A stretch of DNA of 64,000 nucleotides from Firmicutes bacterium UBA7523 (GTDB lineage: Bacteria > Bacillota > Dethiobacteria > Dethiobacterales > Dethiobacteraceae), in assembly GCA_002479415.1 (NCBI GenBank), contig DLMZ01000047.1:2984-66983 (forward strand). The letters are read 5' to 3'. Of this stretch, positions 23,427 through 41,674 are shown piece by piece. Under the pieces are notes generated by a model. The model saw nothing but the letters and a program-made list of their open reading frames with translations. It was not told the DNA's origin and did no database searches. The translations under genes and the position numbers were made by a program. Position 1 is the first letter of the stretch. Every line of letters starts with the position of its first letter.

Positions 23427-23428
23427 GC

Positions 23429-26997: not shown

Positions 26998-27023
26998 CCG
27001 GGGCGGTCGCGCGACCGCCCCGG
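26998..27023. repeat. 26-bp perfect GC-rich palindrome between recT and the MBL gene
   Basis: CCGGGGCGGTCGCGCGACCGCCCCGG, with no downstream T tract. Confidence 0.8.
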
Positions 27024-27027
27024 CAGA

Positions 27028-27747
27028 ATGGAGTGCAGCATGGAATTCGTGGCTTACGCAAGTAGCTCTAAGGGAAATCTATACACTCTCTCAGATGGGC
27101 AAGAAAGAATACTCATTGAGTGTGGCTTGCCGATCAGAGAGGTCAAGAAGCTGCTTGGGTTTAGTTTGTCGGGGATATCCTTCTGTCTGCTGAGCCACGG
27201 CCATTCTGATCACTCAAAAGCTGCTGCGGACATTATGAGGGCTGGGGTAGATATTTACACGTCGCAGGGCACAATCGACGCCCTGAAGCTACATAGCCAC
27301 CGCGCACATGTAATCCGGGCAGGGAAACAGTTTGCATCTGGAAATTGGATTGTACTGCCGATAGAGGCGCAACATGATGCCCCGGAGGCGCTGGCTTTTC
27401 TGGTTTACAATAAAACCACTCGCAAACGGATGTTATTCGCAACAGACACGTATTATCTGAAAAACGCATTTGCTGGGCTCGACATTATTGCGGTTGAGTG
27501 CAATTACGCCGCTGACATCCTTCAATCTAACGTAGAATCCGGAGCTGTACCGGCCGCAATGAAGAACAGGCTCCTAAAGTCTCACTTCAGCCTTGAAAAT
27601 GTGAAGAAATTTTTAAAAGCCAACGACTTGAATAAAGTGCAGGAGATTTGGCTGGTACACTTGTCCGACGGCAACAGCGATGCAGAACGGTTCAAGCGCG
27701 AAATCCAAGAACTAACTGGCAAGCCAACATATATCGCGGGGGTATAA
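27028..27747 (+). CDS. MBL-fold metallo-hydrolase (probable recombination exonuclease partner)
   Basis: SSSKGN, LLSHGHSDH (HxHxDH) and later H/D motifs. Adjacent to recT. Confidence 0.8.
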   Translation: MECSMEFVAYASSSKGNLYTLSDGQERILIECGLPIREVKKLLGFSLSGISFCLLSHGHSDHSKAAADIMRAGVDIYTSQGTIDALKLHSHRAHVIRAGKQFASGNWIVLPIEAQHDAPEALAFLVYNKTTRKRMLFATDTYYLKNAFAGLDIIAVECNYAADILQSNVESGAVPAAMKNRLLKSHFSLENVKKFLKANDLNKVQEIWLVHLSDGNSDAERFKREIQELTGKPTYIAGV

Positions 27748-27749
27748 CT

Positions 27750-28409
27750 ATGAAATTTGCTGCTGAAATCGAAAAAGTGGAATCGCTAAAAAAACACTTC
27801 AAGGTCGTCATTTATGCGGACAAGGAAGCAAACAGGCGGTTCCTTTCGCAAATAGACGGTTTTATAGACAAACCAGTAAAGGTTGAAGTTCTCGTAGATG
27901 AAGATAGGCAAAAAGAAATTTTGGATATGATTAGCGAGGAGCAGCGGCGCAAAACATACGCTATACTGCGAGACATCAGCAACCACATAGGCGATGTAAT
28001 AGAGAGTACAAAGCTTGAAATGAAGCATCAATTCGCGGCAGCAGGTGGCCCGGAAAGTTTTTCTCTCAGCGACTGCTCACGTGAGGTGGCCCGTGAATTC
28101 ATAACTTTCTTGATAAAGTTTTGTTTCGAGTACGGAGTTCCGATGTCTGAGCATCCGAAGTCAGCATTTGACGACCCGGAAACATACGCCCGGATATGCC
28201 TAGAAACAAACACATGTTGCATCTGCGGCAAGCGCGGAGAGGTTCATCACTGCACCGGCTCGCGCATCGGAATGGGACGTAACCGCAACAAGGTTGACGA
28301 TACAGGCAAGCTCAAAATATGCCTTTGTCGTGAGCATCATAGCGAAATGCACAACGGAGCGGAAGAAGATTTCTTTATGAAATATCATGTAGTGCCGGCG
28401 GTAGTTTAA
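27750..28409 (+). CDS. Phage protein with C-terminal Cys/His nuclease-like zinc motif (DUF968/HNH-like)
   Basis: ATG at 27750. C-terminal CCICGKRGEVHHC......N.....CREHHSEMH. Confidence 0.5.
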   Translation: MKFAAEIEKVESLKKHFKVVIYADKEANRRFLSQIDGFIDKPVKVEVLVDEDRQKEILDMISEEQRRKTYAILRDISNHIGDVIESTKLEMKHQFAAAGGPESFSLSDCSREVAREFITFLIKFCFEYGVPMSEHPKSAFDDPETYARICLETNTCCICGKRGEVHHCTGSRIGMGRNRNKVDDTGKLKICLCREHHSEMHNGAEEDFFMKYHVVPAVV

Positions 28410-28432
28410 ATGTGGGGGTGGAGATAGTGACA

Positions 28433-28744
28433 ATGAATTGGGGAGCGAAGTCGCACAGCAATATAAAAAAATGGCCTCGTTGGGTCTGGGCAATACTTCT
28501 CCTAGTTTATTTATACGCATTGCTATCTATGATTATGCGTCCCTCAAGTGCATTTCAGGAACCAGAGTACATTGTGCACATTGTTCAGCCGGGAGATACG
28601 CTTTGGTCGGTTGCTAAAGAGCGACAGGAAGAGGCTGGTTTCAGTGGCGATATTCGATCTCTTGTGTGGGAGATTCAAGAGGCATCAGAAACAACGGCAT
28701 TGATACTACCGGGAGATATTTTGCTGATACCGGTTGTGAAATAG
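28433..28744 (+). CDS. Membrane-anchored LysM-domain protein
   Basis: ATG follows GGGGGTGGAG. TM helix, then the LysM pattern Y.V..GDTLWS.A............L.PGD.L.IP. Confidence 0.7.
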   Translation: MNWGAKSHSNIKKWPRWVWAILLLVYLYALLSMIMRPSSAFQEPEYIVHIVQPGDTLWSVAKERQEEAGFSGDIRSLVWEIQEASETTALILPGDILLIPVVK

Positions 28745-28764
28745 GCTCGAAAGGGGATGTACGC

Positions 28765-29109
28765 ATGCAAGCGGTTAACGTGATTCGTGAAGAGATGGAA
28801 CAAAACAAAACCAATAGTTATGTTCAGGCGGTGGGGGACTTCCTGCTGAAACACCTGGCGGCAAATCCGGGGGATGCGGAGAAGATTTCGGCTGAAAAAA
28901 CGCTTATCAGTAGCATGGATGCTCTGCGGAAGGAAGCAGAGAAGAAAAAGACAGGGAATTTTTACGCTATGCCACCGGATGAAGGCTTTAAGATTATCCT
29001 AGAGTATTTCGGCATCACCGATGCCCAGGTAAACGTGCAGATACCTGCGGCTCCGGAGAAGAAGGCATTGGACTTTGATGTGAAACTGGATGATCTGCTG
29101 AGGGGGTAG
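28765..29109 (+). CDS. PcfK-like protein (tentative)
   Basis: ATG follows AAAGGGGA. Size and layout resemble PcfK-like proteins that accompany PcfJ. Assignment is from memory only. Confidence 0.4.
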   Translation: MQAVNVIREEMEQNKTNSYVQAVGDFLLKHLAANPGDAEKISAEKTLISSMDALRKEAEKKKTGNFYAMPPDEGFKIILEYFGITDAQVNVQIPAAPEKKALDFDVKLDDLLRG

Positions 29110-29114
29110 GCGCT

Positions 29115-30791
29115 ATGATTATAGCCGAAATGATAATTCCGAAAATGTTCACCGCTTATGCAGAGGATTTGGGGTATCAGAAACACAACGGCTTGCACCA
29201 TTATCAGTATTACTGCAACAATTGTGACCAGCTTTTTTCTGCGGCTTGGGGCAGAGCAGTAAATATGGGCTACGCTGAGCGTGGAAGTCTTTTTGCTTGC
29301 CCGTGCTGCGGCAGACCGCACGAAAAGCATGTTGCATTTGTTAAGCGGAACATAGCTGCTCCGGACAAAGTGCGCCTTGTTGTTAAGGAGTATAAAAGCG
29401 CAGTTACGCTTGAGTTTTCCTGCAAGGCAGTTGTCTTTTATGATTACTTAGGCCTACAGGGCGCAACCCACAGGGAAGTGTTTCGATTTGATATCGCCAA
29501 GCAAGAAGCGACTCTTTCGGTAACTCACGCCGGCATTAAGCACGAACCCGTTGAGATCGGGAGCCCCTTTAACCTTGCCTTATTCCAGTCCAGCATGCTT
29601 TCCATTTTCTCCTCTCGCAGCATACCTAACACTGAGCAGAAATCGAAGCTCACAAAGGTTCTCAAAATCCTACGCGACACTGTGCACCAGAAGCTAGAAA
29701 AGCACCTTGGGCACAAAATCAAGTCCATGTTCGTCAGTCCGGGCACCCATTGGGGGATGTTTCTTTTCCCACTTTTCAATATGGCATACAGGGTGGCTTG
29801 CACGGATGCACCAAATCTGCCGGAGTGTTACCGGGATGAGCACAAAGCCGTATTTGCCTTCTGGAACACAAAATATTTCGATGAGCTTGAGGGTGGCCAG
29901 CTAATGGAAGATGTAATCCTGAACACCCGCGGGGGCATGGACTTTATTTCGGCATTAGTCGAATTATCCGGGCTACCGGACAAGCCTAGGGTGCGCAGGA
30001 TCCTTGCAGAAAACCCGTTTGAAGCTAACATACTAAAACTTGCATTTTCTACTTGCTGCAATTACGACCATGCAACTCAGTTGTATCGGGGGATTACGGC
30101 AAACCGAAAATTCCGGGCGGACTCATGGAATGGCGGTGAACTCAACAGTGTTAGTTATGATGGACTGGCTGAATTTTTGTGGGAGATGAAAGAAATATAC
30201 GGAGAGGCCGGCATTGTACGCCTGGTGAATGAAGCGAAAGAACTGCATACCAGGGACTGCATCCGACTATATGAGCAGTTGAACGACGAGAACAAGGAAG
30301 CTGTGGTCGGGGAAGGTATCCGGCTTCGGGATCTGCACGACTGGATGTCGCTGCGACACAAAAAGCAGGGGCACAAAAACCTTAAATTCGATGTGCCGGA
30401 ACACATTGTTAGACGGCTATCCATGCAGCATGACAGGCTGCGGTTCTTCCTGCCTGCGGAGTCGATGGAGCTTGTAGAGGCTGGTCATCAGCTCCATAAC
30501 TGTGTTGCATCCTATAGCGACAGTATGAAGCAGCATGATTCGTGGATTGTGCTCGTGGCGGATGATAAGGGTAAATTAGTGGCCTGCCTTGAACTAGTCG
30601 GATCCGGTAATCCCCCCAATGTTACGAGGGTGTTGGTGCAGGCAAAGATTGACCGGAACCAGTGTATTTCTAAAGACAAAAAATTAAACGCTGCTGTTCT
30701 GGCCTGGGCAAAAGATGCCGGCATTGAAATTAAAACCAAGGACGTTAATGTGCCTAATAAAAAGAATAATGAATTGGAGGTTGCAGTATGA
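29115..30791 (+). CDS. PcfJ-like protein
   Basis: The C-terminal block L.EAGHQLHNCVASY......H.S.IV........ACLE........Q....N fits the PcfJ domain signature. N-terminal zinc ribbon (CNNC..CPCC). Confidence 0.6.
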   Translation: MIIAEMIIPKMFTAYAEDLGYQKHNGLHHYQYYCNNCDQLFSAAWGRAVNMGYAERGSLFACPCCGRPHEKHVAFVKRNIAAPDKVRLVVKEYKSAVTLEFSCKAVVFYDYLGLQGATHREVFRFDIAKQEATLSVTHAGIKHEPVEIGSPFNLALFQSSMLSIFSSRSIPNTEQKSKLTKVLKILRDTVHQKLEKHLGHKIKSMFVSPGTHWGMFLFPLFNMAYRVACTDAPNLPECYRDEHKAVFAFWNTKYFDELEGGQLMEDVILNTRGGMDFISALVELSGLPDKPRVRRILAENPFEANILKLAFSTCCNYDHATQLYRGITANRKFRADSWNGGELNSVSYDGLAEFLWEMKEIYGEAGIVRLVNEAKELHTRDCIRLYEQLNDENKEAVVGEGIRLRDLHDWMSLRHKKQGHKNLKFDVPEHIVRRLSMQHDRLRFFLPAESMELVEAGHQLHNCVASYSDSMKQHDSWIVLVADDKGKLVACLELVGSGNPPNVTRVLVQAKIDRNQCISKDKKLNAAVLAWAKDAGIEIKTKDVNVPNKKNNELEVAV

Positions 30792-31747
30792 CCGAGACAG
30801 CTTTAGCCATCGAAAGAACGCCTGATGTCATAGCAACTGAGATTATAAGTATCCGAGAGCAAGGGAAGAAGATTGTTTTAATGGCCAGCATTGAAATTGG
30901 GAAGCGCCTAGTGGAAGCAAAGGAACTGGTAGCGCACGGAGAATGGGGCAAATTTCTTGAAGAAAAGGTGGATTACTCTCCCCGGACAGCAAATAACCTT
31001 ATGCAGCTTTACAACGAGTACGGCAACAGCCAGATGTCACTTTTCGGTGGTTCTGCAGATTCGCAAGCGATTGCGAATTTGAGCTATACACAGGCTATTG
31101 CTTTGCTTGGAATCCCGACACATGAGCGTGAAGAGTTTATGCAGGAACATGATGTTGAAAGTATGAGTACTAGGGAGCTGCAGGCGGCGATTAAGGCCCG
31201 GGACGATGCAGAGCGTAAGCTGAAAGAAGTCGAAGAAAATTCAGATGAAATAATGGATGAGCTGATTACAGTTCGAGAGGAAAGCAAAAAAGCAAAAGAG
31301 GAAGAGGATAAGCTCAAAAAGGAGCTCAAAGAGGTTCAGCGGCAGCTGACAGAAGCTATAAATGCCGGAAACAGTGAGAAGGTTGGTAATCTGCAGTCTG
31401 AACTGGCAAAGACAGATATAGCACTAAAAGATGCTCAAAGTAAAATAACTGCACTGGAAAAGCAGTTAAAGGAAAAGCATATTGATATTCCTGCAATAGT
31501 TGAGAAGGTTCCTGAAGATGTGGAGAGGGAGCTGAACGAGCTGCGGACCAAGATGAAGCAATTTGAGGAAAAGGCCGGCAAGCCGGAAGCGCTGCTGAAA
31601 TTCAAGGTTCGTTTTGACACACAGGTATCCGGTTTTCAGGAATTGCTATCTATTCTGGAAGAAATTAAGTCAGCAGAGCCTGACGCTTACGAGAAATACC
31701 GCAGCGCCGTTTCCGGTCTGCTGAAAAAGATGCTGGAAAGCCTGTGA
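30788..31747 (+). CDS. DUF3102-domain protein with long coiled coil
   Basis: N-terminal ..EI...........IEIG..L.EAK.L..HGEW..WLE..V.YS.RTA...M pattern of DUF3102. Confidence 0.65.
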   Translation: MTETALAIERTPDVIATEIISIREQGKKIVLMASIEIGKRLVEAKELVAHGEWGKFLEEKVDYSPRTANNLMQLYNEYGNSQMSLFGGSADSQAIANLSYTQAIALLGIPTHEREEFMQEHDVESMSTRELQAAIKARDDAERKLKEVEENSDEIMDELITVREESKKAKEEEDKLKKELKEVQRQLTEAINAGNSEKVGNLQSELAKTDIALKDAQSKITALEKQLKEKHIDIPAIVEKVPEDVERELNELRTKMKQFEEKAGKPEALLKFKVRFDTQVSGFQELLSILEEIKSAEPDAYEKYRSAVSGLLKKMLESL

Positions 31748-31784
31748 TTTAACTAACCGAAGAAAACTAAGGTGGTGAGTTTGT

Positions 31785-32207
31785 TTGAAAGCTATCAGTA
31801 TACTTCAACCGTGGGCATCACTGATTTCCGTGGGTGCTAAAGAGATAGAAACCCGGAGCTGGGCAACCAATTGTTTGGCAATACACGCAAGCAAGCGATA
31901 CCCAAAGGATCTACAAGAACTAGCAAAACAGGAACAGTTCTATTCCGCGCTACGTCCAGATGGCAACTATCAGTACCCGGAATTACACTTAGGCTGTATT
32001 ATCGCAGTCTGTCAGCTGGTGGACTGTCAGCGGATTAATTCAGACGAACTCCCGCCTGAACCGGAAGCATCCTTTGGAGACTACACGCCTGGGCGCTACG
32101 CCTGGTTACTGACGGATGTGAAGAGAATAACACCAGTGGCAGTAAAAGGGCAACTCGGTTTGTGGAATTGGGAGCCGCCGGAAATGCATACACAAGGTAT
32201 TGGTTAG
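31785..32207 (+). CDS. ASCH-domain protein
   Basis: MKAISI.QPWA.LI..G.K..ETR.W pattern. TTG start follows GGTGGTGAG. Confidence 0.7.
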   Translation: MKAISILQPWASLISVGAKEIETRSWATNCLAIHASKRYPKDLQELAKQEQFYSALRPDGNYQYPELHLGCIIAVCQLVDCQRINSDELPPEPEASFGDYTPGRYAWLLTDVKRITPVAVKGQLGLWNWEPPEMHTQGIG

Positions 32208-32208
32208 C

Positions 32209-32487
32209 ATGTTTACTCCTGTATACGATATAGAGACTGTCTTGGAAACGCTGCTACCCCTCCGCATCGGTCATGTAAGTGAGGAGTATCAATTGCATGA
32301 TGCTGTAGCAAAGCGTTTAGCTGGAGCGGGACTGTTCTTTTATAAAGAGCACCGCCTGGGTCCCCGAAATCGTATAGATTTCTTGGTTGGCGGAATTGGC
32401 GTTGAGTGCAAGAAGGGTCGACCGAACTGGCAGCAGGTTACAAACCAGCTGCACCGAACTTTAAGACAGCAAAAGAAAGTGCATTAG
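32209..32487 (+). CDS. Small PD-(D/E)xK-like protein (tentative)
   Basis: RIDFLV..IGVECKKG resembles a D...E.K nuclease core. Confidence 0.35.
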   Translation: MFTPVYDIETVLETLLPLRIGHVSEEYQLHDAVAKRLAGAGLFFYKEHRLGPRNRIDFLVGGIGVECKKGRPNWQQVTNQLHRTLRQQKKVH

Positions 32488-32522
32488 AAACACAAATATG
32501 TGACTTCCTTTACAAGCCATTC

Positions 32523-32744
32523 ATGGAGATTCGTGGTCATATGTGCCGGGGTGAAGACAGAAAGCCAATCACAACAGAGTACAGCGGAGAATTAGACGTT
32601 CAGCAAATAGTCGATGTAGGCTGTGCGTGGTGGTCTTGTGACGGGCTTAACGGTGAATGCGAGAGTAAAAGTTTTGATATGCTGCAAAAAGGGTGGATAT
32701 GGAAATGCCGCGAGTGTGGCAAGGAGGGAAGCACAATTGTATAG
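32523..32744 (+). CDS. Small Cys-rich protein
   Basis: Internal ATG of track ORF 32406..32744. Contains CAWWSC and CRECG motifs. Confidence 0.35.
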   Translation: MEIRGHMCRGEDRKPITTEYSGELDVQQIVDVGCAWWSCDGLNGECESKSFDMLQKGWIWKCRECGKEGSTIV

Positions 32745-32863
32745 AAAGATGCGAGACCAGATTGAGCAGTTAGTTCTCGAAGAATTTGACCGGGCGAACA
32801 AAAACTTCCGGGGTTTAGTAATAACCATGAGGCGTATTGGGGGAATACGCGGGAGGAGACGCA

Positions 32864-33190
32864 ATGATACCTGAGTATAGAAGGTTTAGATGTTGCTTGT
32901 GTCCAAACAGGAATGACCCACAGAAAGTTAAGTGCCCCCCGAAACCGTTTAACCCAGAAGTCACGCCTTGCCGTTTTATCAAGGCCTACATAGATAAGCG
33001 GGGCTGGAAATACAAAGTAATGTCCGGCATGGGCGAAAGCAATTACAAGGCCAGGTATCAAAAGCCTGAGAAACGTGGGGATGCTGGGTGGAAGTGTGTG
33101 CGAAATCTTCCCTGGCGGAAGTCGTTTGATGAGGCGCAGAGTGATTTGAATGCGTTAGCGAAGAAGAAGGGGTGGGGTGAGACAGGGTGA
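32864..33190 (+). CDS. Hypothetical basic protein
   Basis: ATG follows GGGAGGAG. Overlaps the start of the PAPS-reductase-like gene by 4 nt. Confidence 0.45.
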   Translation: MIPEYRRFRCCLCPNRNDPQKVKCPPKPFNPEVTPCRFIKAYIDKRGWKYKVMSGMGESNYKARYQKPEKRGDAGWKCVRNLPWRKSFDEAQSDLNALAKKKGWGETG

Positions 33191-34431
33191 GCAAAAAGCA
33201 AAGCATATACGCATATGTCGAAATGCAAGAGATGCAATCCTGGCCGCTTGAAAAGAAAGTCGAGGAGGCGCAGGAAATAATCCGCGAAACGTTCAGGCGC
33301 GGTAAGAAGGTAGCTCTTGCATTTTCCGGCGGCAAAGACTCAACTGCCCTCTGGCACCTTATTCGCGAAACCTGCCCTGAAGAAGCAAAAAATATGATAG
33401 TCATTTTCGGCAATACAGGCGTGGAGTACAAAGAATCCCTTCTGTTTGCTCGTCAAATGGGCAAGGAATGGGGCGGCGAGAATTTTTACGAAACGAAGCT
33501 TGACCGAATAAAGGTGCCGCGCCTGAAATACGAAGCGCAAAAAGAAGTATGGGCAAAGATTGAGGCGGATGATGACGTTGCCAGGTACCTAAATATAAAA
33601 GGGCGCCTACTGAAAACTGACAAGCTCAATGAAGCCGTTACACCCGAAATGTGGGCAGATTTTCGCCGCCGGAAGCTCGTGTGGGAGGCGGGAACGCAGG
33701 TTAGTTTTTGGTTTATTGCTGAACAGTACGGTTTCCCGATACTTGGCAAGGATGCTACGAAGTTGGACGCGCCGCGAATAAACATCAATGTGTTTCTAAA
33801 ATACAGCGATGAACAGAGCAAGGGTAACGAAAAATACTACGACATGATCAGAAAGTTCCCAGACATGCGTATATCACACTCCTGCTGTAATTTTATCAAG
33901 GAGCAGCCAAGTCAGAAGCTGCAAAGAGAGTTGGGATGCGACACCCTTTTCCGTGGTTTAATGGCAAGCGAGAGTCGCCGCCGCACGTTTACTTTTTTAG
34001 ACCACGGATTTTTGTACACGGTCAAGACAGGCTACCTTTACTCAAACCCGATGTCAACATGGACGGATGCCGACGTTTGGGAGTACATCAAAACGCGAAA
34101 CTGCCCGTATTCGGAATTATACGATTTGGCCGATGATGACGGGAACAAACTGTTTCAGCGCAACGGCTGCTATACATGTGGCACAGGATTGGCCTACGAG
34201 GGAAACAACATAGAAATCTTGCGGAAGCATTATCCGAGCAAGTGGCGGGCGTTGATGGAATACGGGATGGCTAGGGAAATGAAGGCCTTCGCATGTGCCA
34301 TCAGTGACGACATCAAACTAAACACCTTAGAACACGACTGGCTGTTGGATATGCGGCCATGTGCTTTTGACAGGCTGACACCAAGAGTAAATTTGTTGGA
34401 GGCCTTATCGTATGGCGCGGTGCTATTTTAG
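33187..34431 (+). CDS. Phosphoadenosine-phosphosulfate reductase family protein (phage type)
   Basis: PP-loop ALAFSGGKDSTALWHL and later Cys-rich regions. Confidence 0.8.
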   Translation: MSKKQSIYAYVEMQEMQSWPLEKKVEEAQEIIRETFRRGKKVALAFSGGKDSTALWHLIRETCPEEAKNMIVIFGNTGVEYKESLLFARQMGKEWGGENFYETKLDRIKVPRLKYEAQKEVWAKIEADDDVARYLNIKGRLLKTDKLNEAVTPEMWADFRRRKLVWEAGTQVSFWFIAEQYGFPILGKDATKLDAPRININVFLKYSDEQSKGNEKYYDMIRKFPDMRISHSCCNFIKEQPSQKLQRELGCDTLFRGLMASESRRRTFTFLDHGFLYTVKTGYLYSNPMSTWTDADVWEYIKTRNCPYSELYDLADDDGNKLFQRNGCYTCGTGLAYEGNNIEILRKHYPSKWRALMEYGMAREMKAFACAISDDIKLNTLEHDWLLDMRPCAFDRLTPRVNLLEALSYGAVLF

Positions 34432-34451
34432 GCACAGAAGGGGTGTATTAA

Positions 34452-34607
34452 ATGAACCACTACCAACTCCACCACCTAATCGAAGCCTACCGCGCCCGGA
34501 TGCACCAACTTGCGGCTGTGTACGGCATGGGGGATGCGCGAGTGTTGCGACTAAGCCAGAGGCTGGATAGGTTGATTGTGGCGGAGATGAGGGGGAAAGG
34601 GGTGTAA
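34452..34607 (+). CDS. Spo0E-like aspartyl-phosphate phosphatase (51 aa; absent from the supplied track)
   Basis: ATG follows GAAGGGGTG. The translation MNHYQLHHLIEAYRARMHQLAAVYGMGDARVLRLSQRLDRLIVAEMRGKGV fits the Spo0E family layout (IE..R..M......G.....VL..SQ.LD.LI). Confidence 0.6.
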   Translation: MNHYQLHHLIEAYRARMHQLAAVYGMGDARVLRLSQRLDRLIVAEMRGKGV

Positions 34608-34609
34608 TT

Positions 34610-35047
34610 TTGCGAGAAATCATAGTGCCGAGAGAAAATGGACGGTTTGTATCAGGGTTTTCTTATTCTCCGGAAACGCAAATAAAACCAGGTGAACATA
34701 AAAGTCAGCAAACCGAAATAAAACCAGGGCAAAGATTAAGCCCATCTACAGAATTTAAACCCGGGCAAGTAGCACGCAACAAATTACCGATTGGTTCTGT
34801 GAGGATAAGAGAGGAAACGCATACGGGATTATTGAGGGCATGGGTAAAAGTTGCCGAGCCTAATGTGTGGCAAAAAAGAGCAATCCTTGTTTGGGAGTCT
34901 ATGCGCGGGCCATTACCAAAAGGCTGGGTTGTTCACCACAAAGACAGAGACAGCCTCAACGATCATCCCGATAACCTTGTAGGAATGACGCGGCGCGACC
35001 ATGCCGCAGAACACAGAAGGGAGCTGCAGGCATGGTATATGAACTAA
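34610..35047 (+). CDS. Free-standing HNH endonuclease
   Basis: VHHKDRDSLNDHPDNLVGMTRRDHAAEH (HNH_3-type motif). Confidence 0.8.
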   Translation: MREIIVPRENGRFVSGFSYSPETQIKPGEHKSQQTEIKPGQRLSPSTEFKPGQVARNKLPIGSVRIREETHTGLLRAWVKVAEPNVWQKRAILVWESMRGPLPKGWVVHHKDRDSLNDHPDNLVGMTRRDHAAEHRRELQAWYMN

Positions 35048-36549
35048 TTGTGGATTCCTTTGCCGGCGGTGGTGGTGCCTCAATAGGTATTGCCCTGGCC
35101 ATAGGCCGTTCCGTAGATATAGCCATTAACCATGACCCGATAGCCATAGCCATGCACAAGGTTAACCATCCGGACACCTACCACTACTTAGAGAATGTCT
35201 GGGAAGTAGACCCCCGAGAAGCGGCGGCAGGTAGGCCAGTGGGGTTGTGTTGGCTGAGTCCGGATTGCAAACACTTTTCGAAAGCAAAGGGTGGCAAGCC
35301 AGTAGAAAAGAATATTCGTGGCCTTGCATGGGTGGCAGTGCGCTGGGCGGCAACAGTGAGGCCGCGAGTCATCATCCTAGAGAACGTAGAAGAGTTTAAG
35401 ACCTGGGGGCCGCTGCTTGAAGGCGGCAAGCCTGACCCGAAGCAAAAAGGACGGACGTTTCGTTCATTTGTCAATGCGCTGAAGAGGTACGGCTATAAAG
35501 TAGAATGGCGTGAATTGAGGGCATGTGATTATGGAGCGCCGACGATACGCAAGCGGCTGTTCCTTGTTGCTCGATGTGATGGACAGCGCATTGTCTGGCC
35601 GGAACCGACTCATGGTGACCCGGAGAGTGATGTAGTTAAATCCGGGAAGCTGAGCCCATGGCGCACTGCAGCAGAGATAATTGATTGGAGCCTGCCATGT
35701 CCCAGCATCTTTGAGAGGAAGCGGCCACTGGCTGAGAACACTATGAAGCGAATTGCCCGGGGAATTAAGAAATTTGTGGTTGATAATCCAAGGCCGTTTA
35801 TAATGCAGGCTTACGGTGGAGGTTACACGGGATCTGGATCAGACATTAATAAACCGCTGCCAACAATTACAACAAAGGATCACAACTGGCTAGTAACCCC
35901 AATTATATCCCGTCAATTCGGCAATTCAATCGGGCACGGAATTGATGACCCCCTGGGAACTGTGACAGCTGGCGGTGGCGGTAAATCACAATTAGTCACA
36001 GCTTTTCTTGCTCAATACCACGGCTACGATGACGCACCAAGAGGTCAAACGATGGACAGGCCGTTACTTACACAGGACACATCGAACCGCTACGCCCTTG
36101 TCACTAGCCACATCATAAAAATGCGCGGCACCAACATTGGCCACAGGGTAGACGAACCACTACATACCATTACTGCCGGCGGCTTACATTTGGGTGAGGT
36201 AAGGGCCTTCCTACTTAAGTATTACGGCACGGCTACCGGTCAGGAGTTAAACAGCCCGATGCACACCGTAACGACAAAGGACAGAATGGGCCTTGTTGCC
36301 GTCCACGGCCAGGACTATCAGATTGTTGATATCGGCATGAGGATGCTGGAACCACACGAGCTTTTTGCGGCACAGGGTTTTCCGGATGATTACATCATTG
36401 ACCGGGACGAGGACGGGAACAAGTTTGCGAAAAAGGAACAGGTGGCAAAATGCGGCAACTCTGTTTGTCCACCGCTTGCCGAGGCGCTTGTAAGGGCGAA
36501 TATGTCGGAGCTGGCCACGGAGAGAAAGGATAATGAGGCTGCCATATGA
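35032..36549 (+). CDS. DNA (cytosine-5)-methyltransferase
   Basis: Motif I DSFAGGGGAS, motif IV SPDCKHFS, motif VI ILENVEEF, C-terminal QGFP.DY and GNSV. Confidence 0.9.
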   Translation: MVYELIVDSFAGGGGASIGIALAIGRSVDIAINHDPIAIAMHKVNHPDTYHYLENVWEVDPREAAAGRPVGLCWLSPDCKHFSKAKGGKPVEKNIRGLAWVAVRWAATVRPRVIILENVEEFKTWGPLLEGGKPDPKQKGRTFRSFVNALKRYGYKVEWRELRACDYGAPTIRKRLFLVARCDGQRIVWPEPTHGDPESDVVKSGKLSPWRTAAEIIDWSLPCPSIFERKRPLAENTMKRIARGIKKFVVDNPRPFIMQAYGGGYTGSGSDINKPLPTITTKDHNWLVTPIISRQFGNSIGHGIDDPLGTVTAGGGGKSQLVTAFLAQYHGYDDAPRGQTMDRPLLTQDTSNRYALVTSHIIKMRGTNIGHRVDEPLHTITAGGLHLGEVRAFLLKYYGTATGQELNSPMHTVTTKDRMGLVAVHGQDYQIVDIGMRMLEPHELFAAQGFPDDYIIDRDEDGNKFAKKEQVAKCGNSVCPPLAEALVRANMSELATERKDNEAAI

Positions 36550-36725
36550 AGCGAAGTAAACTAAGGTGCGATGCAAGCAATTTTGACATAGATACGGGGT
36601 AGGTGATTGCTGTTGCCACAAAAACAAGATTTGGATTCTATATTATCTCAGCCCCAGGTTGCCGCCAAGGAGCATATGAAGCGAATTATTGAGCAGCTAA
36701 AAAAAGACGGCCGGAGGTCTAACTG

Positions 36726-37652
36726 ATGGCAAACCCCCAACCGGACAAATACACAAGACTTTCTAACGAGCTGTATGAGTCAATAATGCAGACCGATTTC
36801 ACCAAACGACAACGGAGCATGCTGGATTTAATTATTAGAGCGAGTTACGGCTGCAATAATAAGTATGCCTTGCTTCGGCCCTCTGATTTTGAGGTAGTTG
36901 GGGTTTACAAAACACACGTTAAAAAAGAGCTTGAGTACCTTTGCCGTGCAAAGGTGATAACTTGGCATGGTGAGCGGATTTCGCTCAATAAGGACTACGA
37001 GCAGTGGCGAATTAACCTTTGCAAGCCATGCAACGGGAACAAGCTGCAGGAAATTCTTCGAAGAAACATCTCTAATGAAGTTACTGAAACAGTAACCAAA
37101 GTTACCAAAACAGTAACTGCCGAACAAATGGTCGGTTACCAAAACAGTAACCAAGAGGTTACTAAAACAGTAACCGACACCCCCCAAGAAAGCCTGCAAC
37201 CATCGGACTCCGCAGGGTGCCTAAAGACAATTAAAGACAATAGTAGTAGTAGTATAGTGGGCGAGGCAAGTCTTGAGGATGCCGTTGTGTTTTACCAAAA
37301 GCACTTTCCTATACTCAACCCATACCAGTATGAGCAGTTAGTAAAATTTGTGGATGATGGCATGGCGGCTGACGTCATTCTTTATGTGATGGAAAAGGCG
37401 GCTCTAAATGGGGCGTTAAAGTTTGCGTACATACAAAGCACATTAGGCACTCTTTTTGTTCAGGGAGTTCGAACGAAAGAACAGGCCCTAAGAGAAGAGG
37501 AGTTATTTAAACGACGAGGAGGCTTTAACAATGATGACACGAAGAGACCGCGAGCGTCGCCAAGGAGAGGTAGTGCAGCTCAAAAACGCACTGGTAGCCT
37601 CGAATGTATTATCATTAACGGCGCCGGGGATGAAGCTGCTGAGCCAGGATGA
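36726..37652 (+). CDS. Phage replication organizer/initiator (Rep_O N-terminal-like plus DnaD-like C-terminal domain)
   Basis: N-terminal ..YT...N.L.E.....D.T.RQ..ML.LI.R.SYGC.. and a C-terminal DnaD-like segment (..Y...F....P...E.L...V.DG...D.I....E.A). Contains iterons. Confidence 0.7.
   Translation: MANPQPDKYTRLSNELYESIMQTDFTKRQRSMLDLIIRASYGCNNKYALLRPSDFEVVGVYKTHVKKELEYLCRAKVITWHGERISLNKDYEQWRINLCKPCNGNKLQEILRRNISNEVTETVTKVTKTVTAEQMVGYQNSNQEVTKTVTDTPQESLQPSDSAGCLKTIKDNSSSSIVGEASLEDAVVFYQKHFPILNPYQYEQLVKFVDDGMAADVILYVMEKAALNGALKFAYIQSTLGTLFVQGVRTKEQALREEELFKRRGGFNNDDTKRPRASPRRGSAAQKRTGSLECIIINGAGDEAAEPG
37080..37174 (+). repeat. Four iterons (GTTAC-N7-GTAAC), probable phage origin of replication
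   Basis: GTTACTGAAACAGTAAC at 37080, GTTACCAAAACAGTAAC at 37101 and 37135, GTTACTAAAACAGTAAC at 37158. Confidence 0.75.
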
Positions 37653-38427
37653 ACATGTTGCGACGTATGATACAGGGGAACGGATTTCTTGTATCGGCTG
37701 CGGGGAAGAAATCCTGGTAACTCTAACAATCTTTGACTTATTGGGTGAAGAGAAAAGACGCGAGCACCGTGTAGACTTATGTGATGACTGCTATAAGCGG
37801 CAAGAAGAGGACAAGCAGATACAGCAGCGCTTGGAAAAGATTAATAAGCTCTTTAACGTGGCGGATCTGGGAGTTCGTTTTGCTCAGTGTACATTCTCAA
37901 ACTGGACTAAACGCAAGGAACTAAACATGGCCTATAAAATTTGCCATGAATACACGAAGGCTTTCAGGGACGCTAAATTGACCGGTCAAGGTATAGTTCT
38001 GATGGGTGACCGCGGAAGCGGTAAATCCCATCTGGCCGCAGCGATTGCAAATGAGCTGTTAAAGCAGCTAGTTCCCGTAATATTTCAGCCGGTGCCCAAG
38101 TTGTTAAAACGTATTCAGGCAACATACGGACGTGGCAGTGAGGAAAAGGAGAGGGATATAATTTCCGCACTCACAACCTGTGATTTGCTTATCTTGGATG
38201 ATGTCGGAGCAGAAAAATGGACTGAAACTCGTGAAGAGACTTTGTATAACATCATCGATGAACGGTACCGGCAGCTGCTACCCGTTATACTCACCACAAA
38301 CTGTGACATGGAAGACCTTGAAATGCAGATTGGCTCACGCAGTTATGATCGATTACTAGAAGTTTGCCGTTTTGTCCGCATGGAGGCAGAAAGCTGGAGA
38401 GTGTTAAAGGCCAAAGGAAAAGTTTGA
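37531..38427 (+). CDS. DnaC/IstB-like helicase-loader ATPase
   Basis: ATG follows GGAGG. N-terminal zinc ribbon, Walker A GDRGSGKSHLA, Walker B LLILDDVG. Confidence 0.85.
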   Translation: MMTRRDRERRQGEVVQLKNALVASNVLSLTAPGMKLLSQDEHVATYDTGERISCIGCGEEILVTLTIFDLLGEEKRREHRVDLCDDCYKRQEEDKQIQQRLEKINKLFNVADLGVRFAQCTFSNWTKRKELNMAYKICHEYTKAFRDAKLTGQGIVLMGDRGSGKSHLAAAIANELLKQLVPVIFQPVPKLLKRIQATYGRGSEEKERDIISALTTCDLLILDDVGAEKWTETREETLYNIIDERYRQLLPVILTTNCDMEDLEMQIGSRSYDRLLEVCRFVRMEAESWRVLKAKGKV

Positions 38428-38449
38428 TTCGTGGATTGGAGGAACGAGA

Positions 38450-38944
38450 ATGAATAGACATACAATCGCGTTATACTTTTTACTTCTAACGATTGTCTGC
38501 CTGCTGGTGTTCAACGTTTATACTCAGGCATATATTGCTGCGGCGTTAAGCCAGGAGCTCGAGGCGGCATTTAAGGAGCAGGCGGAGATCCGGCAGAAGC
38601 AAGATGAAATCTGGCAGAGGCAGGAACGGATCCTGCGCATCTTTGAGGGGGCAGAAACCTTTGAAGTAACGGCCTATACTCATGTGGCTATACCGGGAGT
38701 AGCGGATATCAACGGCACCGGAGATGGTTTGACGTCAATCGGTTTGCCGGTGAGTGAAAGATTTGTAGCAGTAGATCCTCGGGTTATTCCCCTGAGGAAG
38801 TGGCTTATAGTCGAGGGAGTGGGTTTGGTTTACTCCGCTGATACCGGTGGGGCGATAAAAGGAAACCGCATAGATATTTTTAAAGAGTGCCGAAAAGAAG
38901 CTTTTGAGTGGGGCAGGCGCAAGGCAAGAGTGGTGGTGCTATAG
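38450..38944 (+). CDS. Membrane-anchored 3D-domain protein (MltA/YuiC-like fold)
   Basis: TM helix, coiled coil, then ..VTAYT......G.G.T..G..V....VAVDP..IPL.....VEG.G...A.DTGGAIKGNRIDIF. Confidence 0.7.
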   Translation: MNRHTIALYFLLLTIVCLLVFNVYTQAYIAAALSQELEAAFKEQAEIRQKQDEIWQRQERILRIFEGAETFEVTAYTHVAIPGVADINGTGDGLTSIGLPVSERFVAVDPRVIPLRKWLIVEGVGLVYSADTGGAIKGNRIDIFKECRKEAFEWGRRKARVVVL

Positions 38945-38945
38945 C

Positions 38946-39113
38946 ATGGAGCGACAAAACATACCTAAGGCGCTTAGGCAAAAGCGGCCCAAGAAAGATG
39001 ATGAAAACATGGACACTTGGACCTGGTACAAGCCAGAGCAGTTCCTAGATAAATTCTATCCGGGGTGGCGCGAGAACGTCCACTTGTGGCCGTCCCGGTC
39101 GGGGAGGTTGTGA
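38946..39113 (+). CDS. Small hypothetical protein
   Basis: ATG lies 1 nt after the preceding stop. Confidence 0.4.
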   Translation: MERQNIPKALRQKRPKKDDENMDTWTWYKPEQFLDKFYPGWRENVHLWPSRSGRL

Positions 39114-39118
39114 TGTAA

Positions 39119-39916
39119 ATGGCGGCAAGGGAACAGCTGTATCGCGAAGCAAGTGCGCCAATGAGGCCCAGTGCTGGTAGAACTCACGAGGAGATTGAGG
39201 AAGAAATCAAAAGACGCTACGGGCATATGAGTGCGCCGGTGGTGACGCGGCAGCTGACGGATGAGGAGCGGTTGGAGCTGGATGCGAGGATTGAGGCTAA
39301 GTATGGGGCGCCGAAGCCTATACAGAGCCAAGTCATCAAAAAGGGAAGGATGGATAGAGCTATGACGGAGCAAACGGTCAATTATACTGCAAAAGCAGAG
39401 GAAAATGTGGGCGGCATGTCAACTAGGGAACTTATTGAGTTAAAAGGACTCAAGGGGAAAATCGCCGTCTCTCTCGTAGAGAGCGTTGACAAAGCAGCGT
39501 TTCTTCGGGCGGTAGGTGAGGGTAAGTCTAACGTCGAGGTTGGCAAAATATTTGGCATTAGTGCTACGTATGTGTCGGGGCTGCGTAAGTTGTGGGACTG
39601 TCAGGGCGAAAGGAAGAGGATTGGGAAGAAAAAAGCTTTGGTGCCGGGCGTTGGCACTGTTAAGCCCGCTGAACATGACAAGAAAGATGAGCTGGACGGC
39701 GATGAAGCCCGCTATACCCTGACCGAAAAAGGCGAGGAGATTATGGTTGAGGCGGAGGTCTCTAGCGATTATGCGTTTGAACTGAAAGCATTTGAACACC
39801 CAAGTGTGGCAGCGGAGTTAGTATACGGAGTATATTCGGCTCTTACTAAGTTTGTGTGCGTGAATATAGATTCTAGGGTGTCGGTTGAGGTTAAGGTGAG
39901 GCGGGTTTCTTCGTGA
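39119..39916 (+). CDS. Hypothetical protein with central HTH-like segment
   Basis: ..GKSNVEVGKIFGISATYVSGLRK.. resembles a sigma-70 region 4 or resolvase-type HTH. Confidence 0.45.
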   Translation: MAAREQLYREASAPMRPSAGRTHEEIEEEIKRRYGHMSAPVVTRQLTDEERLELDARIEAKYGAPKPIQSQVIKKGRMDRAMTEQTVNYTAKAEENVGGMSTRELIELKGLKGKIAVSLVESVDKAAFLRAVGEGKSNVEVGKIFGISATYVSGLRKLWDCQGERKRIGKKKALVPGVGTVKPAEHDKKDELDGDEARYTLTEKGEEIMVEAEVSSDYAFELKAFEHPSVAAELVYGVYSALTKFVCVNIDSRVSVEVKVRRVSS

Positions 39917-40176
39917 GGGAGAACGAGATTCGCGCCCAAGTTAGGGATTATCTTCGGCTAAAAGGTTGGTTTCTGTATTACAACCTAGCTGGCTTAGGGG
40001 CTTATCCGGGATTGAGCGATATAGTTGCAGTTAAGGGCGGGCGTATAATACACATTGAGCTTAAGACCAAGCGCGGCAAACAGAGTGACAACCAAGAAAA
40101 ATTTCAGACTGACTTAGAGGCGGCCGGCGGGGAGTATCGGGTGGTTAGGTGCATCGAGGACGTTGAAGATTTATAA
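39913..40176 (+). CDS. VRR-NUC domain nuclease
   Basis: G.SDI.A.K.G....IE.K...G..S..Q..F pattern. Confidence 0.75.
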   Translation: MRENEIRAQVRDYLRLKGWFLYYNLAGLGAYPGLSDIVAVKGGRIIHIELKTKRGKQSDNQEKFQTDLEAAGGEYRVVRCIEDVEDL

Positions 40177-40195
40177 ATTCACGGAGGTGCGAAAT

Positions 40196-40369
40196 ATGGA
40201 TTGGAATCAAGCGAATGAACATTTAGAAACATGCGAAAAAGCATATGCCGGCATCGGTTCATCAGGGTATTTTGCTTTGAGTGTTGTCATTAGACCATTA
40301 CGCGACAGGCTTAATGGCGGGGAAAGAACAGAAGAACTCTATCAAGAGATTATGGAAGTAGCTTTATAA
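40196..40369 (+). CDS. Small hypothetical protein
   Basis: ATG follows GGAGGTG. Confidence 0.4.
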   Translation: MDWNQANEHLETCEKAYAGIGSSGYFALSVVIRPLRDRLNGGERTEELYQEIMEVAL

Positions 40370-40386
40370 AGGGGGCCGTACTCCCT

Positions 40387-40674
40387 ATGAAAAGACAAAA
40401 CAAACGAAAAATATACCTAAAGCCGCACTTCAAGGAACGCTGGCTCCAGCATATCGGCTCTGAAAAAGAAGGCCGCATCAAGAGCACTCTGCACGCAGCC
40501 ATGGCGGAGAAGCCAGCGAAGAGAGTCAGGGAAAACTATTTTGCATTTGAAGTGAGGGGCGGGCATCGGGCAGTGTGTGCAATAGACCCTGACGGGACAT
40601 GGGTGTTTGTGACGCTGCTGGCGCGGTGGATGCATGAGCCGCGGAGGATGGCGGAGAAAGAGGAGGCTGGGTAG
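40387..40674 (+). CDS. Hypothetical protein
   Basis: ORF only. Confidence 0.4.
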   Translation: MKRQNKRKIYLKPHFKERWLQHIGSEKEGRIKSTLHAAMAEKPAKRVRENYFAFEVRGGHRAVCAIDPDGTWVFVTLLARWMHEPRRMAEKEEAG

Positions 40675-41097
40675 ATGATGAACCAAGAAGGTAAAAGGGA
40701 TGAAGGAAAGGCAAGACTATCACTCGTACCATCAGAAATAATCAGGTGTATTGCATCTGTGCGCGAGTTTGCTACAACAAGAAAATATTTAGACCCCGAT
40801 AATTGGCAAGGAGTAGAGATTGAAAAGTTTCGCGACGCAGCATACCGGCATTGGTTAGAGTATATTGATGACTCTAAGAGTGTAGATAGCGAGAGTGGTT
40901 TACCCCACTTGTGGCACTTAGCTTGTAATGTAGCGTTTCTGTGCGAAATAGAAAGGAGAAGCGCGGAAAGAGGAAAGTGTTGTGATGTTGCAAGAGAGGT
41001 AAACATCATATCTCCCGCAGACAGTTGCGTCATGTGCGGAGAGTATACGCCGGAAGGCAGTCATGTGTGCAAGGTGTGTCGAGATGCTGTTGGCTAG
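40675..41097 (+). CDS. DUF5664-like (dATP/dGTP pyrophosphohydrolase-like) protein with C-terminal zinc ribbon (tentative)
   Basis: N-terminal KDEGKARLSLVP.E........V..F...KY....W.......F.DAA.RH...Y....D.ESG.PHL.H.A.N..FL pattern. Confidence 0.5.
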   Translation: MMNQEGKRDEGKARLSLVPSEIIRCIASVREFATTRKYLDPDNWQGVEIEKFRDAAYRHWLEYIDDSKSVDSESGLPHLWHLACNVAFLCEIERRSAERGKCCDVAREVNIISPADSCVMCGEYTPEGSHVCKVCRDAVG

Positions 41098-41125
41098 GGT
41101 GCGCGGTTAAGGGGGAGCAGAAATA

Positions 41126-41407
41126 ATGGGCATGGGGGTGGCTTGCTTGTCAAAGACGGAGTGTATTAAGTTTGAGTGTATCTGGTGCGATGTCCCGCTG
41201 CTATTCAACGTGGAGCATGGATACTATAAGTGTCCAGACTGCGGAGGAGAGTGGTGGCCCGGTCCCTCAGATTACGGGGTCTCGACGTTGTGGCGTGATG
41301 AGCAACGATACAAGAAAAGTATAAGCAAGCAGGGTGGCGGTAGTAATAATGCCGGCAGAAAAAAAGACAAGCCTTTGCCCCAGCAAGACAAGTATAAACT
41401 TTATTAA
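41126..41407 (+). CDS. Zinc-ribbon protein
   Basis: C..C..14 aa..CPDC. Confidence 0.45.
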   Translation: MGMGVACLSKTECIKFECIWCDVPLLFNVEHGYYKCPDCGGEWWPGPSDYGVSTLWRDEQRYKKSISKQGGGSNNAGRKKDKPLPQQDKYKLY

Positions 41408-41573
41408 TAAGGGGCTTGCAAAAAGTTGACAAACATGTTAAGCTTACGTTAATAGCGTTATACCTTAGGGATGGAAATATTTTACATAAAAGATTAGTTT
41501 GTTTATGGTTATTAATAATATTAATGGTTAGTGATTTGATATTATTAATAATTGATAGTTAATATTTAATATA

Positions 41574-41598
41574 AGAGCCTACGGGCTCTTTTTCTTTT
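41574..41598 (+). terminator. Candidate rho-independent terminator before the late operon
   Basis: AGAGCC-TACG-GGCTCT followed by TTTTTCTTTT. Confidence 0.5.
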
Positions 41599-41674
41599 GC
41601 GGCAAAATTAAAAAGGAAGACAATTAACAAACAAAGAAATCAACGCAGCCTTGAGGGTAGGTGGTGAGAGTGTA

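What the first reader, a model, noticed from the sequence alone, without database searches (positions are those of the whole stretch)
34452..34607. Unannotated Spo0E-like phosphatase gene inside a sigK-splitting prophage
A 51-codon ORF, below the track cutoff, has a good RBS (GAAGGGGTG). It sits between the PAPS-reductase-like gene and the HNH gene.

Its product carries the Spo0E-family layout, including the diagnostic helix ..VLRLSQRLDRLI.. (family signature SQELD.LI, with the Asp retained).

Established knowledge: Spo0E-family proteins dephosphorylate Spo0A~P and delay or block entry into sporulation.

Inference: the prophage depends on sporulation-stage excision from sigK and also carries a potential brake on sporulation initiation. 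That would let it influence the host dormancy decision. The signature Glu is replaced by Arg, so activity is not guaranteed.
Basis: partly seen in the sequence, partly recalled or inferred. Interest (0 to 1): 0.7.

Follow-up and report, generated by a model that had tools for sequence, protein, structure and literature searches.

The report
Phage-borne Spo0E-like anti-sporulation gene
A 51-codon gene inside an intact virus genome that splits the host's late sporulation gene sigK really does encode a Spo0E-family protein, the kind that switches off the master sporulation regulator, but viral copies of this family have been reported before, so this is a sound but fairly ordinary find.

Summary
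ORF 34452..34607 (+) encodes 51 aa, with GAAGGGGTG 6 nt upstream of the ATG. It matches Pfam PF09388 (Spo0E-like) at E=8e-11, 42.2 bits against a cutoff of 23. It folds as a two-helix hairpin whose best PDB match is the B. anthracis Spo0E-like phosphatase 2C0S. It keeps Ser35, Leu38 and Asp39 of the SxxxD signature. The Glu-to-Arg change is typical of its closest relatives.

The element is a 53.8-kb apparently intact prophage. It interrupts sigK at an AATGA core beside a large serine recombinase. The 3' half of sigK lies 5.6 kb past the window end on the same contig. The host is Dethiobacter-like.

The closest relatives with enough flanking DNA all lie in phage early DNA-metabolism operons. 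Most phages that share the 73-89%-identical neighbouring PAPS-reductase-like gene lack a Spo0E-like gene, so it is sporadic cargo. It has no promoter-like site of its own. I therefore think it is expressed after induction or infection to lower Spo0A~P, rather than in the lysogen.

Phage-borne spo0E-like genes and sigK-integrated phages are both published. Verdict: new member of a known kind; function untested.

The parts
34437..34445 (+). Shine-Dalgarno-like GAAGGGGTG, 6 nt before the ATG
   Evidence: Read directly from the sequence.
34452..34607 (+). Spo0E-like gene, 51 aa plus stop
   Evidence: ORF listing. Pfam PF09388 E=8e-11, 42.2 bits against 23. AlphaFold2 pLDDT 91 with helices 3-24 and 29-48. 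Foldseek top hit 2C0S, TM 0.93, rmsd 0.8 A. dN/dS 0.12-0.38.
34554..34568 (+). Codons for the signature S35-Q-R-L-D39 on helix 2 (SxxxD; Asp39 is the presumed catalytic residue)
   Evidence: Sequence. Ser35, Leu38 and Asp39 are invariant in alignments A1 and A2. Motif census. Signature definition from PMC11115286.
33187..34431 (+). PAPS-reductase-like gene directly upstream; its stop is 20 nt before the Spo0E-like start
   Evidence: Pfam PF01507 E=1e-22. It is 73-89% identical in about 35 related prophages and viral contigs, while the slot after it is hypervariable.
34610..35047 (+). HNH endonuclease gene; its TTG start is 2 nt after the Spo0E-like stop
   Evidence: Pfam HNH_3 E=1.2e-14. It is absent after the Spo0E-like gene in the related fragment L002.
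35032..38427 (+). Rest of the early module: C5 DNA methylase, replication protein O/DnaB_2, and IstB/DnaC-like loader
   Evidence: Pfam; gene calls on the source contig.
22251..22312 (+). Two overlapping sigma-70-like promoter matches (hexamer spans 22251..22279 and 22285..22312) at the head of the + strand early operon. No + strand promoter-like match lies between 26456 and the Spo0E-like gene.
   Evidence: Consensus scan only; the total count is not above the shuffled expectation. Sequence.
19259..20424 (-). Lysogeny module: ImmA-like Peptidase_M78 (19259..19771) and HTH_3 repressor-like gene (20092..20424)
   Evidence: Pfam.
15849..17393 (-). Large serine recombinase (Resolvase + Recombinase + Zn ribbon) at the left end of the element
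   Evidence: Pfam. Best NCBIfam relative is XisF, below its cutoff.
15820..15824 (+). attL crossover core AATGA. The same core in attR lies at window-equivalent 69596..69600, outside the window.
   Evidence: The phage arms CTATGTTTATATCTGT and ACAGATATAAACATAG are inverted repeats. The element is 53,776 bp.
15394..15824 (+). 5' half of sigK (pro-sequence, region 2 and the start of region 3)
   Evidence: Pfam Sigma70_r2. The joined protein passes TIGR02846.
15825..64000 (+). Prophage body within the window; it continues for 5.6 kb beyond the window
   Evidence: Lysogeny, recombination, replication, terminase, capsid, tail and lysis genes.

Best explanation
The ORF is a real gene for a minimal (51 aa) Spo0E-family protein carried as accessory cargo by an intact temperate phage. 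The phage is integrated in sigK of a Dethiobacter-like endospore former. Shown: family membership by profile, by fold and by the SxxxD signature; purifying selection; and placement inside the phage's + strand early recombination/replication operon, without a promoter-like site of its own. Inferred: the gene is made together with the early genes after prophage induction or fresh infection. Its helix-2 Asp39 then enters the active site of phosphorylated Spo0A and removes (or blocks) the phosphoryl group. This keeps Spo0A~P low, so the cell does not commit to sporulation and Spo0A~P cannot dampen phage development while the phage replicates. The sigK insertion is a separate, late-stage link to sporulation: excision by the serine recombinase restores sigK.
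For: Family membership:
- Pfam PF09388 at E=8e-11.
- A profile of the clade hits the B. anthracis Spo0E-like structures 2BZB and 2C0S at about 1e-6.
- The AlphaFold2 model is a confident hairpin (pLDDT 91) whose top PDB match is 2C0S, TM 0.93.
- Ser35, Leu38 and Asp39 are invariant. The literature gives SxxxD as the signature with a critical Asp, and Spo0E represses sporulation in both Bacillus and C. difficile (PMC11115286).

A real gene:
- dN/dS is 0.12-0.38.
- A 62%-identical homologue occupies the same slot after an 89%-identical PAPS-reductase-like gene.

Phage early-operon placement, seen in six independent contexts, all on the same strand:
- the window itself;
- L005, with overlapping stop and start;
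- L028/L029;
- L073, L074 and L075.

Operon structure: the gaps are 20 nt upstream and 2 nt downstream, with no + strand promoter-like site nearby.

Precedent: Spo0A suppresses the phi29 lytic cycle (PMC2731898), and phage-borne spo0E homologues have been proposed as sporulation manipulators (PMC10075063).
Against: - There are no expression or biochemical data.
- The host Spo0A is not on the contig, so the interface could not be examined.
- Position 3 of the classical SQELD motif is Arg.
- NCBIfam gave no hit.
- The gene is absent from most related phages, so it is dispensable for them.
- The promoter scan covers only a sigma-70 consensus, and its total count is not above the shuffled expectation. 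An internal promoter active in the lysogen cannot be excluded.
- 0A boxes (TGTCGAA) are not enriched in the window: 5 found against 6.1 expected. Relief of direct Spo0A repression of this phage is therefore unsupported.
Confidence: 0.6

Rival explanations
1. Lysogenic-conversion reading. The gene is expressed from the resident prophage and continuously raises the threshold for sporulation entry, so the prophage biases the host's dormancy decision.
For: The family and motif evidence is the same as for the best explanation. Published proposals for prophage spo0E homologues assume this kind of host manipulation (PMC10075063; bioRxiv 10.64898/2026.07.27.740819). In two relatives, 155-219 nt gaps upstream could hold promoters.
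Against: In the window the gene is packed 20 nt and 2 nt from its neighbours, in the middle of the early DNA-metabolism operon. That operon runs opposite to the repressor module and has no + strand promoter-like site nearby. Such operons are normally repressed in lysogens (established knowledge of temperate phages).
Confidence: 0.2
2. A Spo0E-fold protein with a different partner. It binds another receiver domain or an RRNPP-type regulator (as C. difficile Spo0E binds RstA), or a phage protein, and does not act mainly on Spo0A~P.
For: Spo0E-like proteins are reported to have species-specific partners and to occur outside spore formers (PMC11115286). The phage clade has its own invariant residues (Gly25, Asp28, Arg30) and a mostly non-acidic third motif position.
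Against: The catalytic-helix signature is strictly kept. The hosts identified for the loci that carry a Spo0E-like gene are from spore-forming lineages. No RRNPP receptor lies next to the gene.
Confidence: 0.15
3. A chance ORF or decaying remnant with no function.
For: It is very short. It is missing from most related phages. It has no NCBIfam model hit.
Against: The profile E-value is 8e-11. The predicted fold is confident and specific. dN/dS is below 0.4, and intact homologues of about the same length are found in metagenomic contigs, phage-like wherever enough flanking DNA is held. It has a good RBS and an unambiguous start.
Confidence: 0.03

Closest known systems
Spo0E-family aspartyl-phosphate phosphatases: B. 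subtilis Spo0E/YisI/YnzD, B. anthracis BA5174 (PDB 2C0S) and BA1655 (PDB 2BZB), and C. difficile Spo0E
   Same: Pfam PF09388. A 40-100 aa two-helix hairpin. The SxxxD signature on helix 2 with the Asp kept. About 34% identity and rmsd 0.8 A to 2C0S.
   Different: It is phage-borne. It is at the minimal end of the size range (51 aa) with no C-terminal extension. It has SQRLD instead of SQELD. It belongs to a small clade with extra invariant residues (Gly25, Asp28, Arg30); all clade members with enough flanking DNA lie in phage-like gene clusters. Its activity is untested.
Phage and prophage spo0E-like genes reported next to RRNPP quorum-sensing systems (Bernard et al., PMC10075063; Brevibacillus phages Sundance and SecTim467, PMC4909266), and the 'aspartyl-phosphate phosphatase' of Clostridium phage phiCp-D
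   Same: A viral homologue of a sporulation-initiation regulator, proposed to manipulate Spo0A~P. phiCp-D is the only isolated-phage tblastn match, and it is weak: 37% identity, E=0.2.
   Different: There is no adjacent quorum-sensing receptor or propeptide. The flanking genes are a PAPS-reductase-like gene and an HNH gene. The gene lies inside the early replication operon, not beside the lysogeny switch. The host lineage is different (Dethiobacteria-like).
sigK-intervening elements: B. subtilis skin, C. difficile skin, the functional C. perfringens phage PhiS63 (PMC3442830), and the Alicyclobacillus sigK prophage (PMC13141910)
   Same: sigK is split into two halves, with a large serine recombinase just inside the element. 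Recombination at a short core restores the reading frame (..DKDGNE|VTLLDILG..).
   Different: At 53.8 kb with complete modules it looks like an active phage, like PhiS63, rather than a degraded skin. None of the sigK-element papers retrieved also came up in the Spo0E + prophage searches. Sporulation-specific excision was not tested.
Phage Rap-Phr systems (for example phi3T), which drain the phosphorelay at Spo0F~P
   Same: This is a functional analogy: a phage-encoded negative regulator of Spo0A~P accumulation.
   Different: It is an unrelated protein family with a different target (Spo0F rather than Spo0A) and peptide-regulated. No peptide control is visible here.

Membership tests
Spo0E family (Pfam PF09388) | Profile match above the curated gathering score | tested here: met
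   42.2 bits against 23, E=8e-11, residues 7-44 on profile positions 2-39 of 42. NCBIfam has no matching model.
Spo0E family (Pfam PF09388) | Small (about 40-100 aa) antiparallel two-helix hairpin | tested here: met
   51 aa. The AlphaFold2 model has helices 3-24 and 29-48 with pLDDT 91. The best PDB match is 2C0S, TM 0.93, rmsd 0.8 A. This rests on a predicted structure, not a solved one.
Spo0E family (Pfam PF09388) | SxxxD signature on helix 2 with the conserved Asp | tested here: met
   S35-Q-R-L-D39. Ser35, Leu38 and Asp39 are invariant in A1 and A2. Signature definition from PMC11115286.
Spo0E family (Pfam PF09388) | Strict classical SQELD motif | tested here: not met
   Glu is replaced by Arg. 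Among 105 PF09388 proteins retrieved, 45 have SQELD, 18 SRDLD, 9 SQRLD and 7 SQALD. The solved member 2BZB has SRDLD. The strict form therefore does not define the family.
Spo0E family (Pfam PF09388) | Dephosphorylates or inactivates Spo0A~P and lowers sporulation | not testable with these tools
   Needs biochemistry or genetics. The host Spo0A is not on the contig.
sigK-intervening (skin-like) prophage | sigK is split, with the two halves flanking the element | tested here: met
   The 5' half lies in the window and the 3' half (Sigma70_r4) 53.8 kb downstream on the same contig. The joined protein passes TIGR02846.
sigK-intervening (skin-like) prophage | A large serine recombinase encoded at the junction, and short identical cores allowing in-frame reconstitution | tested here: met
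   Recombinase at 15849..17393 (-). AATGA cores and inverted-repeat phage arms.
sigK-intervening (skin-like) prophage | Excision in the mother cell during sporulation | not testable with these tools
   The region upstream of the recombinase was read, but no reliable sporulation-promoter call could be made.
Phage RRNPP quorum-sensing / spo0E cassettes (Bernard et al. 2023) | The spo0E-like gene is adjacent to a receptor with a DNA-binding domain plus a propeptide gene | tested here: not met
   The neighbours are PAPS_reduct and HNH_3. No HTH/TPR receptor lies within the operon segment examined.

The most novel reading that the evidence does not exclude
The small Spo0E-like clade (S-[QKR]-x-L-D with invariant Gly25, Asp28 and Arg30), whose members with known context are all phage-borne, is a dedicated early lytic 'anti-dormancy' factor. 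Phages of anaerobic spore formers would switch it on with their replication genes to strip Spo0A~P and keep the cell vegetative until lysis. In this phage it would coexist with a physical gate on sigma-K, giving one virus a handle on both the first and the last checkpoints of sporulation. A further possibility is that the non-acidic third motif position retunes the protein toward Spo0A of non-Bacillus hosts, or toward binding and blocking rather than catalysis.
Probability: 0.4. Interest if true: 0.55.

Novelty: new member of a known kind. Interest (0 to 1): 0.35.

Why it matters
Phage-borne Spo0E homologues have so far been noted only bioinformatically, and mostly beside quorum-sensing switches. 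None of the papers retrieved here reports a functional test of one. This example adds three modest points.

- Its close relatives form a distinct clade; every member for which enough flanking DNA was held sits in a phage early operon.
- The Glu of SQELD is dispensable within that clade, while Ser, Leu and Asp are fixed.
- The gene occurs in an intact prophage that also interrupts sigK, in a poorly studied class of spore formers (Dethiobacteria-like).

If the early-expression idea is right, it gives a simple testable model. A phage would prevent its host from escaping into dormancy during lytic growth, the converse of the spore-entrapment strategy of phi29. The 51-aa protein is easy to synthesise and assay.

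Tried and rejected
- NCBIfam scan of the protein gave no hit. PHROGs gave only an unnamed family, phrog_31003, at E=6e-6.
- tblastn against 50,697 isolated phage genomes gave one weak hit, phiCp-D at E=0.2. blastn of the region found only the methylase.
- The word-indexed protein search with the single sequence returned only the protein itself. The exhaustive HMMER search gave just 10 hits at E<=1e-3.
- IMG/VR scans failed: the alignment A1 was too variable to search with, and the single protein gave no confirmed hit.
- I looked for Spo0E-like ORFs in 13 genome loci and 22 IMG/VR loci that carry a PAPS-reductase-like gene at least 73% identical, using custom HMMs and a motif filter. Only L005 was positive. 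The custom HMM is less sensitive than Pfam, so very divergent copies could have been missed.
- Enrichment of 0A boxes (TGTCGAA) in the prophage was rejected: 5 found against 6.1 expected.
- An own promoter or terminator for the gene: nothing convincing. One weak terminator-like hairpin lies at 34339..34359, inside the PAPS-reductase-like gene.
- A sporulation-type promoter upstream of the recombinase: the sequence was read but no defensible call was possible.
- The primary papers on motif mutagenesis (Diaz 2008; Bongiorni 2007) are not held. The statement that the Asp is critical is therefore cited second-hand from PMC11115286 and PMC3035606.
- The first attempt to fetch the contig tail failed because the called start differs. 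The second worked.

Full report
**1. The observation**

The ORF exists exactly as described.
- It runs 34452..34607 on the + strand and encodes 51 aa. Its ATG directly follows an in-frame TAA, so the start is unambiguous.
- GAAGGGGTG lies at 34437..34445, 6 nt before the ATG.
- The upstream gene (33187..34431) is a PAPS_reduct protein and the downstream gene (34610..35047) is an HNH_3 endonuclease.
- The gaps are 20 nt upstream and 2 nt downstream.
- The gene is not truly unannotated. The identical 51-aa protein is present in the public collection, called on the source contig with a PF09388 hit. That contig is a 74.5-kb contig of a hydrocarbon metagenome.

**2. What the protein is**

- Pfam gives PF09388 (Spo0E-like) at E=8e-11 and 42.2 bits against a gathering score of 23.
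- NCBIfam has no hit. PHROGs has only an unnamed phage family.
- An exhaustive HMMER pass over 1.84 billion representative proteins found only 10 proteins at E<=1e-3. All the small ones pass the Pfam cutoff.
- A profile of this clade hits the two solved B. anthracis Spo0E-like proteins, 2BZB and 2C0S, at about 1e-6.
- AlphaFold2 on the clade alignment gives a confident hairpin: pLDDT 91, helices 3-24 and 29-48.
- Foldseek ranks 2C0S, 'protein aspartic acid phosphate phosphatase', first, with TM 0.93 and rmsd 0.8 A. All other matches are generic helical hairpins.
- Nei-Gojobori dN/dS against five distinct homologues is 0.12-0.38. dS is saturated, so this shows purifying selection only qualitatively.

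**3. The signature motif**

- The C. difficile Spo0E study defines the signature as SxxxD and states that the Asp is critical in B. subtilis (PMC11115286). See also PMC3035606, which cites Diaz 2008.
- Ser35, Leu38 and Asp39 are invariant in both alignments.
- Among 105 PF09388 proteins retrieved with the profile, the motif counts are SQELD 45, SRDLD 18, SQRLD 9 and SQALD 7, plus rarer forms.
- Among the 19 closest relatives, the third motif position is R, A, K, E or V.
- The Arg is therefore a normal state for this clade and not a sign of decay. Whether it alters kinetics or specificity is unknown.

**4. The element**

- 15391..15852 encodes only the N-terminal part of a sigma factor (Sigma70_r2). 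The reading frame leaves sigK after ..GNE, at the AATGA core, and runs on into the element.
- A 514-aa large serine recombinase (Resolvase + Recombinase + Zn ribbon) lies at 15849..17393 on the minus strand.
- I fetched the rest of the contig (locus L034, offset 48,923). It carries a 106-aa Sigma70_r4 ORF just before host genes.
- AATGA occurs at 15820..15824 and at L034 20673..20677. The adjacent phage arms are inverted repeats.
- Joining at the core gives a 237-aa protein that reads ..DKDGNEVTLLDILG.. across the junction. It passes the SigK equivalog TIGR02846, 340.5 bits against 298.65.
- The element is 53,776 bp. It carries a repressor/ImmA module, recombination and replication genes, terminase, capsid, tail and lysis genes. 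It looks like an active temperate phage rather than a degraded skin.
- The host AlaS is 75% identical to that of Dethiobacter alkaliphilus and 72% to Dethiobacteraceae MAGs. The host is therefore a Dethiobacteria-like member of the Bacillota. From memory, D. alkaliphilus was described as spore-forming.

**5. Comparative context**

- The PAPS-reductase-like neighbour is 73-89% identical in 13 genome loci and 22 IMG/VR loci. The genome loci come from Desulfosporosinus, Pelotomaculum, Syntrophomonadaceae, Ruminiclostridium and Oscillospiraceae.
- The slot after that gene is hypervariable.
- Only the metagenome fragments L002 and L003 have a Spo0E-like gene in the same slot. It is 62% identical, while the neighbouring gene is 89% identical.
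- The Pelotomaculum prophage L005 carries a different, more divergent Spo0E-like gene (SEILD; Pfam 28.9 bits) 6 kb upstream, overlapping the next gene in the same operon.
- No other copies were found.
- Close relatives with enough flanking DNA (P0004, P0138, P0140, P0010) all sit on the same strand inside phage early DNA-metabolism clusters. These clusters include SbcCD-like genes, a RecD2-like helicase, RecT, ParB_N, a D5 primase and, in two of the loci, terminase genes.
- The gene is therefore sporadic, repeatedly placed cargo of phage early regions.

**6. Mechanism**

Shown: family, fold, signature, selection and operon position.

Inferred: the protein lowers Spo0A~P, as its cellular relatives do.

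On timing:
- The gene has no + strand sigma-70-like promoter nearby. It is tightly packed in the operon that starts near 22.25-22.31 kb, and that operon runs divergently from the repressor module.
- I therefore favour expression after induction or infection. This would prevent commitment to sporulation, and any Spo0A-mediated suppression of phage development as documented for phi29 (PMC2731898).
- 0A boxes are not enriched, so direct Spo0A control of this phage is unsupported.
- The lysogenic-conversion reading remains possible at about 0.2. A different binding partner is possible at about 0.15. A spurious ORF is very unlikely.

**7. Comparison and novelty**

- Phage and prophage spo0E homologues are already reported, next to RRNPP quorum-sensing systems, in Brevibacillus phages and in a soda-lake isolate's prophage. 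They are still marked there as hypothetical regulators.
- Functional phages integrated in sigK are also published (PhiS63 and an Alicyclobacillus phage).
- None of the retrieved sigK-element papers also appears in the Spo0E + prophage searches. The combination, the early-operon placement and the Dethiobacteria-like host are therefore small additions.
- Verdict: observation confirmed and interpretation supported with a correction on timing. It is a new member of a known kind, of modest interest.

Noticed in passing
window 33187..34431, and loci L005-L017 and L035-L056: The 414-aa PAPS-reductase-like gene is strikingly conserved (73-89% aa identity) across prophages of very different Clostridia-type hosts. 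The gene slot immediately downstream is different in almost every phage. In the fragment L002, a CxxC protein that lies upstream of the PAPS-like gene in the window is found downstream instead.
   Followed up: partly
window 42601..44106 and 44084..44803: The terminase large subunit carries a weak Intein_splicing hit and is followed by another HNH_3 gene. Together with the HNH genes at 34610..35047 and about 27.7-28.4 kb, the phage has at least three HNH-type genes.
   Followed up: no
window 17932..18019 (-) and 17493..17921 (-): A tRNA-Leu(TAA) lies inside the prophage next to the recombinase. Between them is a 142-aa coiled-coil plus CxxC...CxxC protein with no Pfam family and only a faint LmuB hit. 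Its position would suit an excision directionality factor, but this is speculation.
   Followed up: partly
outside the window: L034 18759..19436 (window-equivalent 67682..68359): A 225-aa reverse transcriptase lies just inside attR. It matches only the central part of defence-type RTs (RT_UG17/DRT, E=3e-24). It may be a truncated or minimal defence cargo gene at the prophage end.
   Followed up: partly
window 19249..19255 and 19308..19314 (+): Two TGTCGAA (0A-box-like) heptamers lie 59 nt apart at the junction of the ImmA-like gene and the DUF4352 gene. The window as a whole shows no enrichment, so this may be chance.
   Followed up: no
protein P0007 (not in the window): A 1633-aa protein matched the 51-aa query in six separate stretches at 30% identity. 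De novo designed helical-repeat proteins were the top single-sequence PDB hits. The hairpin sequence resembles idealised helical repeats, which is a caution for weak single-sequence matches.
   Followed up: no
window 38450..38944 and 40675..41097: The early region also encodes a 3D-domain protein and a protein with a dGTP diphosphohydrolase N-terminal domain. A 3D-domain gene also occurs near the Spo0E-like gene in L075.
   Followed up: no
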